Positions 18,965 through 38,942 of a stretch of DNA of 64,000 nucleotides are shown here, piece by piece (positions within the stretch are counted from its first letter, which is position 1; each line of letters opens with the position of its first letter). Under the pieces are notes generated by a model. The model saw only the letters and a program-made list of their open reading frames with translations, did no database searches and had not been told where the DNA came from. The position numbers and the translations under genes are program-made. The DNA lies in the IMG/VR virus record IMGVR_UViG_3300045996_002640, positions 29,802-93,801 of that record; one strand, given 5' to 3'. This DNA is from a virus.

Positions 18965-19651
18965 CTAACGATTCCGATCGTGCTGGTCAAGCGCGGCGAG
19001 CTCGCGATCCAAATCGGTGAGCTCCTCGGCGAGCGAGCGAGGTACCGCCGGCGGCAGCCAGCGCTCAGGCCAGAGCGTGATCGCGCCCATGAACTGTGCC
19101 GGCGAGACCATGGTGTAGACGCCGGTGTAAGGCGGGGGCCAGTGCGTATTCAGATCGAGCCCGAGAAACTCGTCGCGGCGAGTCGCCCAGACGTTGAGCG
19201 CGCTCGCGAAGAACCGGAGCTCCTCGCGCGCCATCGCGCAAACCTCGGGCGAGTAGTCGCGCGAGATATCGAACACCATCCCCTGAGCGACCTCGACGTA
19301 CTCCTCGGTTTGCGTCCGGAGGAGCCGCTGCCGATGCGCGTCCGGGAACCAAACGCCGAGGAGCGCCGAGCGGATGAGCAACTCCGCAGCGCGCGTCGCA
19401 ACCGGGTCGGCCGCATTCTCCAGCTCGGGCGCGGTGAACAGCGACTCCTCTTTCAGCATGTCGTGCGCGTAGCGAACCGCGAGCTCGATCGTGCGTTCGT
19501 TCGATTCATCTTTGCCGGCCACGTTGAAAGTATAGCCCCCGGCTTGGACGCCACCTTGAGGGTTCCCCATCCTGCCGTACATCGAGTTGGTCACGATCTT
19601 GAGGACCGAACCATTGTAGTGCACGCCGAGGCGCTGGCCGTCGTCGCTCAA
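18965..19651 (-). CDS. Hypothetical protein with degenerate shared C-terminal tag
   Basis: 228 aa; ends EELTDLDRELAALDQ; contains LKIVTNSMYGRMG. Confidence 0.65.
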   Translation of the reverse strand: MSDDGQRLGVHYNGSVLKIVTNSMYGRMGNPQGGVQAGGYTFNVAGKDESNERTIELAVRYAHDMLKEESLFTAPELENAADPVATRAAELLIRSALLGVWFPDAHRQRLLRTQTEEYVEVAQGMVFDISRDYSPEVCAMAREELRFFASALNVWATRRDEFLGLDLNTHWPPPYTGVYTMVSPAQFMGAITLWPERWLPPAVPRSLAEELTDLDRELAALDQHDRNR

Positions 19652-20148
19652 TTGGGGAGCTCCATCTTCTCGAGCTCGGCGTCGAGCTCATCGATCGCCT
19701 TCGGGTCGCCCTTGCCACGTGGCAACACCGGCTGAGCCTTGAACCCGCGCGGGGGCTTGGTCTCGGTGAACGTGACGCTCTCGGAATAATAGCCGTTCGA
19801 GCTCCCGAACCAGCGAATCGAGACCGTGCCTTTGACGGTACCGAACCGGTAGTAGGTCCAGGTGAACGACTCGTATCCATCGGCGGGCGGGAAATCGACG
19901 CCGCTTGTGACCTCCTCGGCGAGCACGAGCGGGTGCCCAATGAGGTCGTCCAGGTCGCCGGCGATGTCCTCGACCGAGCACGTGGCGCAGCAATCGGCCT
20001 CGTAGTGAAAGCGGAACTTCCACCCGTCCTGGGTCTCGATCGTCATGTCCTCGCTGCCGACTGCTCCGCCGTCAATTGAGGTGACGACCTTGCCGATCAT
20101 GTTCTCGAAGGTGGTGGCGTCGATTTTGGTCATTCCGATTTGGGTCAT
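19648..20148 (-). CDS. Conserved phage protein (DCC...WTYY...WFGSSNGYYSE family) plus C-terminal tag
   Basis: Recognisable phage hypothetical domain followed by a Pro/Lys linker and IDELDAELEKMELPN. Confidence 0.8.
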   Translation of the reverse strand: MTQIGMTKIDATTFENMIGKVVTSIDGGAVGSEDMTIETQDGWKFRFHYEADCCATCSVEDIAGDLDDLIGHPLVLAEEVTSGVDFPPADGYESFTWTYYRFGTVKGTVSIRWFGSSNGYYSESVTFTETKPPRGFKAQPVLPRGKGDPKAIDELDAELEKMELPN

Positions 20149-20660
20149 GGGAGCTCCAGGCGCTCAAGCTCGCGGCCGAGTGCCTCGTAGTCTTCAGGCG
20201 TGTCGGGATTGAGAATGCCCGCCGGCGTCCGCCGCTGAGCGTCGAGCTCCAGGTACTCACCCCACCGGTCGACAACGCTATGCACCTCGTCGACCTGGAG
20301 ATCGTGGCGCCAGCCAGAGAGATCGATACGAGCAAAGTCCTCGTTCGCAATCGCCACGCCGTGGATTGCAAATTGTTGGGCCGCCCAGAGCGTGCGCCGC
20401 ACCTCGATACCCGCGCCCTGTTGCAAGAACTCGTCGAGCCGATTGAGGACGAAGATCGCTTTTGCAGCGAAGTCGCCAAGGAGTCCGCTCAGGGCCAGCC
20501 GCACGTGCTCGTCCTCGACATCGGCATGGGCGTGCACCAGCATCCCAGCGACGAAGCCTTCTGCACCGCGGTAAGACGGGGGGAGATCTGGCTCCGCTTC
20601 CATTCGCCGGCGCGCCTCGAAGAGCGCGTGCATCCGGTCGCCGATCGTGTCCAAGCTCAT
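20145..20660 (-). CDS. Hypothetical protein with C-terminal tag
   Basis: ATGA-coupled; ends DTPEDYEALGRELERLELP. Confidence 0.75.
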   Translation of the reverse strand: MSLDTIGDRMHALFEARRRMEAEPDLPPSYRGAEGFVAGMLVHAHADVEDEHVRLALSGLLGDFAAKAIFVLNRLDEFLQQGAGIEVRRTLWAAQQFAIHGVAIANEDFARIDLSGWRHDLQVDEVHSVVDRWGEYLELDAQRRTPAGILNPDTPEDYEALGRELERLELP

Positions 20661-21199
20661 GAGGGGAGGGTCAGCCGATCGAGCTCGCGGCCCAGCGCCA
20701 CGTAGTCCTCGGCCGTATCTGGTTCCAGAATGCCTTCGAGGAACGCGACCCGATTCAGGAAAGCGTCAGGCGAGCACGACTGCCAAGCGGCGCCCCACGC
20801 GAAATGGCGAGCGACGTAGAGCTCGTCGTGGCGGCGGTCCCAAAAGAACGAGCACACGGTACCAGTCGCGAGATCGTGATTTGCCGCCTGGACGATCGTC
20901 TGGAAAATGAAGAACGGCATCGGGCGATCCAAGTTCATGGCGAGCTGATTCAGCGCCCACTCCTTATCGCCCGCGATCCGTCCAGGCAGCGCGAACGCGT
21001 CGTCTGGGTCCTTGATCACGTACCCGCTCATAAGCGCGTAGGTCTCAGCGACCAGGCGCTCCGCGCTCAGGTGGAAACGAGCCTTCGCGATCTTGAGGTA
21101 CAGGCCGACCTGCTCGGCCGCCCAAGAGACCTTGATGTCCGTCACGGGCCCGCCGGCGAGCGCGGTTCGGTCGGGGTAGTCGTCGCTTAGCAAGCTCAC
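20657..21199 (-). CDS. Hypothetical protein with C-terminal tag
   Basis: GTGA-coupled start at 21199; ends DTAEDYVALGRELDRLTLPS. Confidence 0.7.
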   Translation of the reverse strand: MSLLSDDYPDRTALAGGPVTDIKVSWAAEQVGLYLKIAKARFHLSAERLVAETYALMSGYVIKDPDDAFALPGRIAGDKEWALNQLAMNLDRPMPFFIFQTIVQAANHDLATGTVCSFFWDRRHDELYVARHFAWGAAWQSCSPDAFLNRVAFLEGILEPDTAEDYVALGRELDRLTLPS

Positions 21200-37579: not shown

Positions 37580-38190
37580 GGCAGCTCCATCTGGTCGAGC
37601 GCCTCGCCGAGCGCGTCGGTCGACGAGGTGCGCGACCCGCCAGGGAGGCAACCCCACACCGCGAAGCAGACACCGTCGGGCGAGAGCTCGCGCCTGAGCT
37701 TGTCCTTCAAGCGCCGCTCAGACGTCGGCAGCATGAGAGCGCCGCCGAAGCGGTCGTAGGCGACGAGCTCGTCGCGCTCGCGCTCGAACTGGACCGGGTC
37801 CTTCGGGTCGCCCTTCGAGAAGCAGCAAGCGACCGCGAACGCGAGCGAGCGCGTGTAGGGCAGCACCCTGCGGTCGGCGGCCAGCGCGCCGTTCATCCGC
37901 TCGGTCACCACCGTCAACGCCGAATCGAACCACTCATCGAGGCGCGCCGGTGCGAGGTCGTAGACCATCGCGTTGTCGCCCTTCTGAATCACTCGAAAGC
38001 CGGTGAGCGCGGTGCCCTGGAGGTCGGGTAGGTTGTCGTGCCAACCGACGCTCCATCGCTCGTCGAGCTCGGACACCTGAACCAAGGCCCAGATAGCGGC
38101 CGCCTCCGCCGAACCCTTCGTCGGCTTCGCCTTGGCAATGTCCGGGAGGATCGTCCGGAGCTCCTCAAACAGTCGGGGGATCGCGATCAT
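37576..38190 (-). CDS. Hypothetical protein with C-terminal tag
   Basis: Ends TDALGEALDQMELP. Confidence 0.75.
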   Translation of the reverse strand: MIAIPRLFEELRTILPDIAKAKPTKGSAEAAAIWALVQVSELDERWSVGWHDNLPDLQGTALTGFRVIQKGDNAMVYDLAPARLDEWFDSALTVVTERMNGALAADRRVLPYTRSLAFAVACCFSKGDPKDPVQFERERDELVAYDRFGGALMLPTSERRLKDKLRRELSPDGVCFAVWGCLPGGSRTSSTDALGEALDQMELP

Positions 38191-38217
38191 GCTTCGACCG
38201 CATCATGCCCCGGTGCC

Positions 38218-38553
38218 TCAGCGCGGGAGCTCCATCCGGTCGAGCTCGTCGCCGAGACGGGCCAGGTCCTCGGCCGCTTGCTTGCGCGCTAGACGCCCGC
38301 GCGACCGCTTGTTCGGCTTGGCCTTACCCAACTCGATCTTGACGTTATCGACCTGGAGCTTGGTCAGCTTCCCGTCACTATCGTAATAGACGAGCTCGCC
38401 CTTCAAGATCAGCTCGTCCGTCTCGAACAGACCGTACGAAAGATCGGCGGCGCCGAGGGCACCAACCCCCCGATCCGCCATGGTCAACTCGACTACGACC
38501 TTCCCATCGGCCGCGTCCTTGATGGCCGTCCCGACCGGCTCACGCTTGCTCAT
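38218..38553 (-). CDS. Hypothetical protein with C-terminal tag
   Basis: Ends DLARLGDELDRMELPR. Confidence 0.75.
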   Translation of the reverse strand: MSKREPVGTAIKDAADGKVVVELTMADRGVGALGAADLSYGLFETDELILKGELVYYDSDGKLTKLQVDNVKIELGKAKPNKRSRGRLARKQAAEDLARLGDELDRMELPR

Positions 38554-38942
38554 TTTGGAAGCTCCATCTGGTCCAGTTGGGCGCCCAATTCTTCCACCTG
38601 AGCCTCTGCCTCAGCCCGGTCAAACGCCCGCGGTCGGCCCCTTGGGCGCCGGGGCTCGGGCGGTGTCATGTCGACGCCGTAAGTCGCGTTCTCCTCAGCC
38701 TTGAACCAGCGCTGACCATCGGCCGATTTCATCAGGACGGCCCGGTGCCCCGACCGGAACTCGGCCTCGTACTCGAGCACGGCCGGGCCAAAGCTGACCA
38801 TGCCGCCACGTCCGTACACCGTCGATGACTTGTCCGAAACGCTCAGCGAGGTGCACTCCCACTCGTCGCCAAGCTCGTCGGGCCATCGAGCGCCGTAGCG
38901 CTCGAAATGGTCCCGGCCTGCCTCATACACCAGGTTTGGCAT
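38550..38942 (-). CDS. Hypothetical protein with C-terminal tag
   Basis: MPNLVY start; ends VEELGAQLDQMELPK. Confidence 0.75.
   Translation of the reverse strand: MPNLVYEAGRDHFERYGARWPDELGDEWECTSLSVSDKSSTVYGRGGMVSFGPAVLEYEAEFRSGHRAVLMKSADGQRWFKAEENATYGVDMTPPEPRRPRGRPRAFDRAEAEAQVEELGAQLDQMELPK

What the first reader, a model, noticed from the sequence alone, without database searches (positions are those of the whole stretch)
18965..38942. About 16 unrelated small proteins share one C-terminal peptide tag, [DE]xLGA[EQ]L[DE][RK]MELP: candidate tag-directed cargo system
Seen: the C-termini are IDELDAELEKMELPN (19648), EDYEALGRELERLELP (20145), EDYVALGRELDRLTLPS (20657), LEQLGAQLDGMMPS (21196), KLQAALDEMELPR (21723), LDELGAQLDRMDLP (24640), EDYERLDEELAKLDQP (26209), AELGAELDRMELP (26622), IDRLGAELEKMNPTE (27216), LDELGAQLEKMDRPWD (28012), IDRLGAQLDLMVLP (36517), FDRLTAELDRMELGG (36983), TDALGEALDQMELP (37576), LARLGDELDRMELPR (38218) and VEELGAQLDQMELPK (38550), with a weaker case at 18965. 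The N-terminal bodies share no visible similarity. The tag is an acidic amphipathic helix ending in Pro, often after a Pro-rich linker. All tagged genes lie between the putative TerS and the portal, in runs of consecutive coupled genes, and none is in the replication or core structural modules. Codons vary between copies, so conservation is mainly at protein level. Known analogies are T4 internal-protein capsid-targeting sequences and encapsulin cargo-loading peptides. Inference: the tag is a common docking address that loads a diverse effector set (for example anti-defence or host-takeover proteins) into the head for co-ejection. Alternatives are a shared degron or an adaptor-binding motif.
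Basis: partly seen in the sequence, partly recalled or inferred. Interest (0 to 1): 0.93.

Follow-up and report, generated by a model that had tools for sequence, protein, structure and literature searches.

The report
Shared C-terminal helix tag on phage proteins
Seventeen unrelated small proteins of one uncultured 94-kb phage end in the same short acidic helix on a flexible linker, which looks like an address label read by one partner that is still unidentified.

Summary
Seventeen ORFs on the 93.8-kb contig (15 in the window, two outside it) end in h-[DE]-x-L-G-A-[EQ]-L-[DE]-x-M-[ED]-L-P, always 3-5 residues before the stop. The case at 18965 is a degenerate copy.

The bodies are unrelated. 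The one body with a known family (DUF7448) has 119 close homologues, and all lack the linker and tag. An AlphaFold model shows a folded body, a coil linker and an isolated helix.

Conservation begins about 45 nt before the ORF end, stops at the stop codon, and shows K/R, D/E and hydrophobic exchanges. It therefore acts on the peptide. Translational coupling does not explain it.

The six L-G-A-Q tags embed TTGGGCGCCCAA, part of a genome-wide palindrome (TGGGCGCCCA, 17 copies, 0.2 expected).

Tag and palindrome are absent from five near-complete relatives and from 1.84 billion representative proteins.

The tagged genes fill a lineage-specific 12.8-kb insertion between terminase and portal.

Capsid loading is neither supported nor excluded. 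A lineage-specific MoxR-vWA pair is an equally good candidate reader.

This scan has noted similar tag systems in other phages.

The parts
19648..20148 (-). T02: DUF7448 body + Pro-rich linker + tag (tag 19651-19695)
   Evidence: Pfam DUF7448, 2.6e-22. 119 nearest homologues lack linker and tag. AF2 model: beta body 9-125, coil, helix 144-156. PSSM 31.4.
20145..20660 (-). T03: orphan body + tag (tag 20148-20189)
   Evidence: PSSM 29.0; no Pfam or PHROG hit.
20657..21199 (-). T04: orphan body + tag (tag 20660-20704)
   Evidence: PSSM 28.2; start GTGA-overlaps the T05 stop.
21196..21705 (-). T05: orphan body + Q-type tag carrying TTGGGCGCCCAA (tag 21199-21240)
   Evidence: PSSM 30.1; palindrome at 21220.
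21723..22088 (-). T06: orphan body + divergent tag (tag 21726-21770)
   Evidence: PSSM 22.5, the weakest of the 17; HMM E 4.9e-7.
24640..25125 (-). T07: orphan body + Q-type tag (tag 24643-24684)
   Evidence: PSSM 35.9; palindrome at 24664; followed by an HNH endonuclease gene.
26209..26622 (-). T08: orphan body + variant tag ending LDQP (tag 26212-26253)
   Evidence: PSSM 24.3; its tag matches the tail of the ORF at 18965 at 8 of 12 residues.
26622..27200 (-). T09: orphan body + E-type tag (tag 26625-26666)
   Evidence: PSSM 32.2.
27216..27674 (-). T10: orphan body + E-type tag (tag 27219-27263)
   Evidence: PSSM 34.0; the only exact CTCGGCGCCGAG.
28012..28734 (-). T11: orphan body + Q-type tag (tag 28015-28062)
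   Evidence: PSSM 34.3; palindrome at 28042.
36517..36948 (-). T12: orphan body + Q-type tag (tag 36520-36561)
   Evidence: PSSM 32.6; best hit of the 1.84-billion-protein profile search.
36983..37579 (-). T13: orphan body + tag ending in GG instead of P (tag 36986-37030)
   Evidence: PSSM 31.5.
37576..38190 (-). T14: orphan body + tag (tag 37579-37620)
   Evidence: PSSM 29.2.
38218..38553 (-). T15: orphan body + tag (tag 38221-38265)
   Evidence: PSSM 31.1.
38550..38942 (-). T16: orphan body + Q-type tag (tag 38553-38597)
   Evidence: PSSM 31.9; palindrome at 38577.
18965..19651 (-). T01: probable degenerate tag (..LDRELAALDQ + 5 residues)
   Evidence: PSSM 12.4, which is background, but 8 of 12 residues identical to the T08 tag.
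54759..57288 (-). Candidate reader (inferred only): vWA protein (54759-56087) and MoxR AAA+ ATPase (56074-57288)
   Evidence: Pfam VWA_CoxE and bpMoxR. MIDAS residues D-x-S-x-S, T and D are present in the sequence. Absent from five tag-less relatives that share the flanking replication genes.
17809..30645 (-). Lineage-specific 12.8-kb insertion between TerL (30646-32304) and the portal-MuF gene (15106-17808), holding T01-T11
   Evidence: In relatives with about 50%-identical portals, the portal gene starts no more than about 0.7 kb after TerL. TerL and portal are identified.

Best explanation
The tag is a self-contained docking helix of about 14 residues. It is amphipathic and acidic. It starts after a helix-capping P/A-E-D and is stopped by Pro. 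It hangs on a flexible, Pro-rich linker at the C-terminus of otherwise unrelated accessory proteins. It works as an address label: one common partner grips this helix and so handles about 15% of the phage's proteins as one group.

What is shown:
- the tag exists, is strictly C-terminal and was appended to at least one pre-existing domain;
- selection acts on the peptide;
- the tag is confined to this lineage.

What is inferred: that there is a single reader (about 0.55-0.6), and which protein it is.

My best single candidate is the phage's own MoxR AAA+ / vWA pair (about 0.2-0.25 overall). The vWA metal site would capture one of the two conserved acidic residues, and MoxR would remodel, assemble or release the client. 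The procapsid interior is the second candidate (about 0.15-0.2).

The TTGGGCGCCCAA core of six tags is a separate, DNA-level feature, described under Noticed in passing. These tags happen to encode it.
For: Placement:
- All 17 tags lie 3-5 residues before a stop, and no comparable match occurs elsewhere in six frames.

Modularity:
- The bodies are unrelated.
- T02 is DUF7448 plus about 35 extra residues. The 119 nearest of 1,296 homologues end at the domain edge, with a best tag score of 6.7.

Structure:
- The AF2 model of T02 has a confident beta body, a coil linker and an isolated helix at 144-156.
- The linkers are Pro-rich.

Peptide-level constraint:
- Column 1 is hydrophobic through 10 different codons.
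- Column 10 switches between K (AAG) and R (CGG/CGC).
- Column 9 switches between D and E.
- The conserved block of about 45 nt falls to background immediately after the stop.

Not a coupling artefact:
- The NTGA stop/start overlap occurs in 11-12 of 17 tagged genes and in 9-10 of 18 untagged neighbours, whose ends are quite different.

Lineage restriction, as expected for a tag that co-evolves with a reader:
- None in five relatives that are at least 97% complete.
- None in 1.1 Mb of related loci.
- None in 1.84 billion representative proteins.

A distant relative (L056) has a different shared C-terminal peptide on 5-6 unalike ORFs, with synonymous codon differences between copies.

For MoxR-vWA specifically:
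- Both genes are present, with MIDAS residues intact.
- They form a lineage-specific block inside a replication module that is otherwise shared with four of five relatives.
- vWA domains capture substrate peptides, and MoxR remodels the bound protein (PMC7159879).
- A MoxR ring can be engaged by a partner's C-terminus (PMC13036017).
Against: - No binding has been shown or predicted for any partner.
- pN/pS over the eight core codons is only about 0.63 (0.27/0.43). Constraint is concentrated on a few positions.
- Part of the similarity is DNA-level (GGC, GCC, TTG and CAA usage).
- The six Q-type tags may be recent copies of one another.

- The co-occurrence is a single evolutionary event. 32% of this phage's proteins of 300 aa or more are also absent from all five relatives, so the likelihood ratio is only about 3.
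- The pair lies 16-35 kb away from the tagged genes.
- vWA ligands are usually extended peptides, not helices (PMC7159879).
- Aphanizomenon phage CL131 has an adjacent MoxR-vWA pair but no shared C-terminal peptide.
- The residues after the final Pro vary (none, N, S, R, K, WD, TE). A reader that needs a free carboxylate in a fixed register is therefore unlikely.
Confidence: 0.45

Rival explanations
1. Capsid cargo address. The helix docks on scaffold, capsid protein or the portal-MuF crown in the procapsid. The tagged proteins are then packaged and ejected with the DNA, so they can act before transcription starts.
For: - Eleven tagged genes, counting the degenerate T01, fill the gap between TerL and portal. 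Five more lie just upstream of TerL, co-directional with the late genes.
- The portal carries a fused MuF domain.
- Targeting peptides that load unrelated proteins into heads are established for T4 internal proteins and for P1 DarB (PMC9024508). The HK97 protease is targeted by its C-terminal part (Duda et al. 2013, listed as reference 35 in PMC9024508; the content is from my own knowledge).
Against: - The relative that shares the whole structural module (G004) and others with about 50%-identical portals have no tags and no insertion.
- No head protein ends in or contains a tag-like helix.
- Tagged bodies have a median pI of 5.6, against 9.0 for untagged neighbours. The T4 internal proteins are basic (own knowledge).
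- Two tagged genes lie at the far end of the contig.
- The known cargo signals of T4 and P1 are N-terminal.
Confidence: 0.17
2. Inherited junction module with little peptide function. New ORFs entered the variable region by recombination at or near the palindrome, fused in frame to a resident 3' gene end. The similarity then reflects common descent and gene conversion of that DNA.
For: - The Q-type tags share an invariant 14-nt core built from rare codons. One pair of tags 53 kb apart is identical at 31 of 33 nt.
- The palindrome is a genome-wide DNA motif.
- The tagged genes sit in a lineage-specific, variable insertion.
- pN/pS is about 0.63.
Against: - Conservation ends exactly at the ORF end, and nothing downstream is conserved.
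- Only 6 of 17 tags carry the palindrome, and the E-type core is not over-represented outside tags.
- The hydrophobic periodicity and the charge pattern are kept through many different codons.
- The helix-capping residues and the linker composition are kept as well.
Confidence: 0.12
3. Shared degron or timing signal. The helix is recognised by a host or phage protease or adaptor, so the whole set is removed together at a set time.
For: - Strict C-terminal placement on a flexible linker.
- C-terminal degrons are a known principle (own knowledge).
Against: - The tag has no resemblance to ssrA-type ends.
- The extreme C-terminus varies in length and residue, while the conserved part is a helix.
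- The host is unknown, so nothing could be tested.
Confidence: 0.08
4. Cis-acting nascent peptide or RNA element. It would tune termination at Pro-UGA and re-initiation of the overlapping next gene.
For: - Most tags end in Pro followed by TGA, overlapping the next start.
Against: - Untagged genes of the same operons couple in the same way without the peptide.
- The distance from the motif to the stop varies by 0-3 codons.
- RNAalifold finds no consensus structure.
- T10 and T15 have separated next starts (+18 and +30) but good tags. No next start was found after T08.
Confidence: 0.04

Closest known systems
Capsid targeting sequences of T4 internal proteins and of P1 DarB (PMC9024508)
   Same: One short peptide shared by otherwise unrelated phage proteins acts as an address. 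It is sufficient to carry foreign proteins to the target.
   Different: Those signals are N-terminal. In T4 they are cut off by the prohead protease (own knowledge). They are borne by a handful of proteins. Here the tag is C-terminal, helical and acidic, sits on 17 proteins, and virion association is untested.
C-terminal targeting part of the HK97 maturation protease (Duda, Oh and Hendrix 2013; cited in PMC9024508, paper not held)
   Same: A C-terminal segment directs a protein into the procapsid.
   Different: It belongs to the protease itself. In this phage the gpI-like protease/scaffold has no tag, and the tag is on accessory proteins.
MoxR AAA+ / vWA pairs: peptide capture by the vWA metal site and remodelling by MoxR (PMC7159879); NorQ-NorD (PMC13036017)
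   Same: The phage encodes both partners with an intact MIDAS signature. The tag offers conserved acidic residues on a flexible tether. The pair and the tags are both specific to this lineage.
   Different: Known pairs serve one or a few substrates, not a library of 17. No contact has been shown here. A cultured phage with such a pair has no tags.
C-terminal clamp-docking tails of T4 gp43, gp33 and gp55, and the acidic tails of T7 gp2.5 and gp4 (own knowledge)
   Same: Several unlike phage proteins dock on one hub through a common C-terminal peptide.
   Different: Those are short tails on replication and transcription proteins. Here the polymerase and helicase carry no tag, and the motif does not fit QL[SD]LF-type clamp motifs.
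Encapsulin cargo-loading peptides (own knowledge)
   Same: A short C-terminal peptide after a flexible linker binds the inside of an HK97-fold shell.
   Different: The sequence is unrelated. The shell here would be a phage capsid protein, and relatives with the same capsid protein have no tags.
Mobile promoter/stem-loop cassettes (PeSLs) of T4-type hyperplastic regions (own knowledge)
   Same: Repeated short DNA modules flank many small novel ORFs in a variable genome region.
   Different: PeSLs are intergenic and act as DNA. Here the repeat is in frame, ends at the stop codon and varies conservatively at the residue level.

Membership tests
T4/P1-type capsid targeting sequence | Signal at the N-terminus of the cargo | tested here: not met
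   All 17 tags are within 3-5 residues of the C-terminus.
T4/P1-type capsid targeting sequence | Tagged proteins are present in the virion | not testable with these tools
   Needs virion mass spectrometry.
T4/P1-type capsid targeting sequence | Signal is sufficient to carry a foreign protein into the head | not testable with these tools
   Needs a reporter fusion in the unknown host.
HK97-protease-type C-terminal targeting tail | The tail is carried by the prohead protease or scaffold | tested here: not met
   The gpI-like protease/scaffold (12218-14008) has no tag-like end; its best PSSM score is 13.2, at an internal position.
MoxR-vWA client peptide | MoxR and vWA genes present in the same genome, vWA with MIDAS residues | tested here: met
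   bpMoxR 6.7e-34 and VWA_CoxE 5.3e-7. D-E-S-D-S, GGGT and TDGED are present in the vWA sequence.
MoxR-vWA client peptide | Tag and MoxR-vWA occur together across genomes | tested here: inconclusive
   Both are present here and both are absent from five relatives. That is one event, with a 32% base rate of absence. CL131 has the pair without tags.
MoxR-vWA client peptide | Physical capture of the tag by vWA or MoxR | not tested
An experiment or a further prediction is needed.
Clamp-binding C-terminal motif | The replicative polymerase carries the same tail; the motif is of QL[SD]LF or T4 SLDFL type | tested here: not met
   PolB (49745-52282) and DnaB carry no tag. The residue at the fourth motif position is R, K or Q rather than hydrophobic.
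ssrA-like C-terminal degron | Fixed terminal residues read together with the free carboxylate | tested here: not met
   The residues after the conserved Pro vary: none, N, S, R, K, WD or TE.
DNA-level recombination cassette (PeSL-like) | Conservation is independent of reading frame and ORF boundary | tested here: not met
   The conserved block is always in frame and drops to background right after the stop.

The most novel reading that the evidence does not exclude
The tag is the client address of the phage's own MoxR-vWA remodelling machine. Together with the other tag-bearing phages noted by this scan, it would define an undescribed kind of phage system: one ATP-driven reader plus a genome-specific C-terminal label on a fast-turning library of effector proteins.
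Probability: 0.2. Interest if true: 0.85.

Novelty: new variant of a known kind. Interest (0 to 1): 0.62.

Why it matters
If one partner reads this helix, about 15% of the phage's genes, all of unknown function, are handled as a single group. The tag would then be a handle for finding what they do together (delivery, assembly, timed removal or remodelling), and a portable address for engineering. The case is also unusually clean for experiments, because the tag is a discrete, capped helix on a linker that can be removed or transplanted. The overlap with a genome-wide palindrome shows how a DNA signal and a peptide signal can share the same codons.

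Tried and rejected
**No result or tool unavailable**
- Complex prediction, with capsid protein, scaffold region 280-596 and MuF domain against the 60-residue tag region, each as an alignment: no verdict, score 0.00. This is not evidence either way.
The 95.7-kb relative (TerL 84% identical, P0002) could therefore not be read.
- The look-up of sequencing runs: none was listed, and no RNA holder was listed.
- The scan has no notes on look-alike stretches in other genomes.
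- The L056 record is not held for a whole-record search.

**Searches for the tag elsewhere**
- A word-indexed database search with the tag alignment returned only the phage's own proteins.
- The Q-type pattern in viral contigs gave 10 unconfirmed stretches.
- The exact DNA core in viral contigs gave five chance hits without tags.

**Function of the bodies**
- Pfam and PHROGs give nothing except DUF7448 / phrog_2650.
- Foldseek on the T02 model gave no significant match. The best hint was a polymorphic-toxin immunity protein at E 0.04.

**RNA structure and similarity to other sequences**
- RNAalifold found no consensus structure.
- The vWA C-terminus (..AFALP..) is not tag-like by score.
- No similar peptide was found in solved structures, best E 0.34.
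- The 439-aa neighbour of MoxR gave only a weak DUF6744 lead.

**Apparent second cases that did not hold**
- L047 turned out to be a divergent paralogue family.
- L065, L054 and L042 were noise.
- Phage CL131, which has MoxR-vWA, has no shared C-terminal peptide.

Full report
**Setting.** The window is bases 29802-93801 of a single 93,801-bp viral contig, estimated 83% complete. GC content is 65%, and by GC3 essentially all genes lie on the minus strand.

The head module is Mu-like:
- a portal fused to a MuF domain (15106-17808);
- a gpI-like protease/scaffold (12218-14008);
- the major capsid protein (10633-11679).

TerL is at 30646-32304. Upstream lies a replication module with DnaB, a vWA protein, a MoxR ATPase, PolB, a RecA-like protein and an Mre11-like protein.

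- All listed C-termini are present.
- A loose regex over six frames hits 15 minus-strand positions, all 3-7 residues before a stop. The one plus-strand hit is 134 residues from a stop.
- The whole contig holds two more tags, in the ORFs at contig 254-769 and 1413-2099.
- With the register fixed, a PSSM scores the 17 tags 22.5-35.9, and at most 19.6 anywhere else.
- An HMM finds exactly these 17 in the genome.
- The tail at 18965 scores at background but shares 8 of 12 residues with the variant tag of the ORF ending at 26209. I read it as a decayed copy.
- With the tags removed, the bodies show no similarity (best E 0.03).
- Only one body has a family, DUF7448 / phrog_2650.

**The tag is an appended module.** T02 has 1,296 DUF7448 homologues. 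They cover only about 70-78% of it and have a median length of 129 aa. None of the 119 nearest has a tag-like end (best score 6.7). They stop at the domain edge, where T02 continues with about 35 more residues.

An AlphaFold2 model of T02 built on 63 sequences (mean pLDDT 85) shows a beta-rich body at residues 9-125, a coil at 126-143 and one isolated helix at 144-156. That helix is the tag.

The 20 residues before the tags contain 11.5% Pro, against 4.0% in the bodies (p=0.005). The residues just before the helix are often P/A-E-D and the helix is closed by Pro. I read these as helix caps (inference).

**Peptide or DNA? Both, in layers.**

*Peptide-level signals:*
- Column 1 is hydrophobic through ten different codons.
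- Column 10 switches between AAG (K) and CGG/CGC (R).
- Column 9 switches between D and E.
- Leu at columns 4 and 8 is invariant.
- Mean pairwise nucleotide identity rises from background (0.28-0.33) to 0.61-0.68 over about 45 nt. It drops to 0.27 immediately after the stop. The conserved block therefore ends with the ORF.

*DNA-level signals:*
- Gly is GGC in 13 of 13 tags.
- Ala is GCC in 10 of 11 (27% genomic usage).
- Gln is CAA in 6 of 6 (15%), always with Leu TTG (7.6%).
- L-G-A-Q is thus always TTGGGCGCCCAA. Its symmetry is kept far better than in slid controls (73% against 22-44% of cells paired).
- RNAalifold predicts no hairpin.

This palindrome is not a property of the tag. TGGGCGCCCA occurs 17 times on the contig (0.2 expected) and GGGCGCCC 35 times (8 expected). 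The sites fall in all three reading frames across the genome, and only six are in tags. The five full relatives have none. The Q-type tags therefore embed a separate, lineage-specific DNA motif of unknown function.

**Translational coupling does not explain the tag.** ATG-GAG-CTS-CCA-TGA does supply a GGAG and the next start. But the NTGA overlap is used by 11-12 of 17 tagged genes and also by 9-10 of 18 untagged neighbours, whose ends are quite different.

**Distribution.**
- A profile search of 1.84 billion representative proteins returned 13 hits. Nine are this phage's own proteins, always at the extreme C-terminus. Four are repeat or low-complexity proteins.
- There are no tags in 1.1 Mb of loci around related terminases.
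- There are none in five relatives that are at least 97% complete. The positive control on the own genome worked.

In relatives with about 50%-identical portals, the portal gene starts no more than about 0.7 kb after TerL. Here the gap is 12.8 kb and holds T01-T11.

The genome is mosaic. Its replication genes are shared mainly with four of the five full relatives (G001, G002, G003, G005), and its structural module only with G004.

**Analogous tags in relatives.**
- L056, a distant relative on a 100-kb contig, has 5-6 ORFs of 101-220 aa with unalignable bodies. They end in ..KA[KQ]xxLxAIDAAQRLGG, with many synonymous differences between copies. Seven of nine motif hits lie within 9 residues of a stop. 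Shared C-terminal peptides thus recur in this phage group with lineage-specific sequences.
- L047 looked similar but is a family of 90-118-aa tandem paralogues.
- L016 is only suggestive.

**Who reads the tag?**

*Head proteins.* No head protein carries or ends in a tag-like helix. Tagged bodies are mostly acidic, with a median pI of 5.6 against 9.0 for untagged neighbours. Capsid loading remains possible, mainly because most tagged genes lie in the late region beside TerL and the portal, and because targeting peptides are established in T4 and P1 (PMC9024508).

*MoxR-vWA.* Earlier notes of this scan pointed to this pair, so I tested it here.
- The vWA protein has the MIDAS residues.
- MoxR, vWA and a 439-aa neighbour form a block that is absent from all five relatives. 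DnaB, PolB and the RecA-like, Mre11-like and SbcC-like genes around it are shared.
- Because 32% of the large proteins are likewise absent from all five, this is weak evidence, with a likelihood ratio of about 3.
- Phage CL131 has an adjacent MoxR-vWA pair but no shared C-terminal peptide.
- The general principle is in print. vWA domains capture substrate peptides and MoxR remodels the bound protein (PMC7159879). A MoxR ring can be contacted by a partner's C-terminus (PMC13036017).

**Verdict.** The tag is most likely a docking helix read by one partner (about 0.55-0.6). The partner is unresolved: MoxR-vWA about 0.2-0.25, procapsid about 0.15-0.2. The rest is spread over a host hub, a degron, or a junction module with little peptide function.

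It is a new variant of a known kind, the shared address peptide. It stands out for its scale, its helical capped form, and its overlap with a genome-wide palindrome. This scan has reported comparable tag systems in other phages. Those notes were used as leads only.

Noticed in passing
window 13964-13975 and 34710-34721 (non-tag exact copies); contig 22018; 35 GGGCGCCC sites in all: Genome-wide palindrome. TGGGCGCCCA occurs 17 times (0.2 expected) and TTGGGCGCCCAA 9 times (0.01 expected). The sites fall in all three reading frames, and only 6 are in tags. None is found in five full relatives. Function unknown: possibly a protein-binding or modification site. Three lineage-specific methyltransferase genes are present (39788-40732, 41459-42592, 60511-61509).
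   Followed up: partly
window 17809-30645: TerL and portal are 12.8 kb apart here, but no more than about 0.7 kb apart in relatives with about 50%-identical portals. The gap is a lineage-specific variable region of small genes. It also holds an HNH endonuclease (24254-24850), small membrane-like proteins and a Pth2-like gene.
   Followed up: partly
L056:5236-15211 (+): A distant relative carries its own shared C-terminal peptide, ..KA[KQ]xxLxAIDAAQRLGG, on 5-6 ORFs of 101-220 aa with unalignable bodies on both sides of TerL. Codons differ synonymously between copies. The rest of its 100-kb contig is not held.
   Followed up: partly
L047:6509-9835 (+): About ten consecutive, overlapping 90-118-aa ORFs lie directly after TerL and share a C-terminal ..[LF]xExLDAxxV.. 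helix. A full-length alignment suggests a divergent tandem paralogue family rather than unrelated tagged proteins.
   Followed up: yes
L016:5759-11909 (+): Four of 25 ORFs downstream of TerL end in h-x(1,2)-L-P plus 0-3 residues (..LDLPDE, ..LLTLPN, ..LKLPWE, ..RMAALP), against a 1% background. This may be a distant version of the tag's end, but it is borderline after multiple testing.
   Followed up: partly
window 54759-58604: vWA, MoxR and a 439-aa protein (weak DUF6744-like lead) form a block inserted into a replication module that is otherwise shared with relatives. The MoxR matches the MoxR-vWA-beta-propeller ternary-system type best, but no propeller was recognised.
   Followed up: partly
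whole contig versus G001-G005: Mosaic ancestry. DnaB is shared with all five full relatives, and the other replication genes (the 403-aa protein, PolB, the 519-aa protein, RecA-like, Mre11-like, SbcC-like) each with four of them. The whole structural module (portal to tail) is shared only with G004.
   Followed up: yes
window 22392-22637: An untagged 81-aa protein has a tag-like stretch (IERLGLALTKLEER, extended PSSM 16.4) 18 residues before its end. It may be a tag that was overrun by a C-terminal extension.
   Followed up: no
window 53524-54114: A 196-aa protein has a weak sigma-70 region 2 match (E 0.002, below the Pfam cut-off). It may be a phage sigma factor.
   Followed up: no
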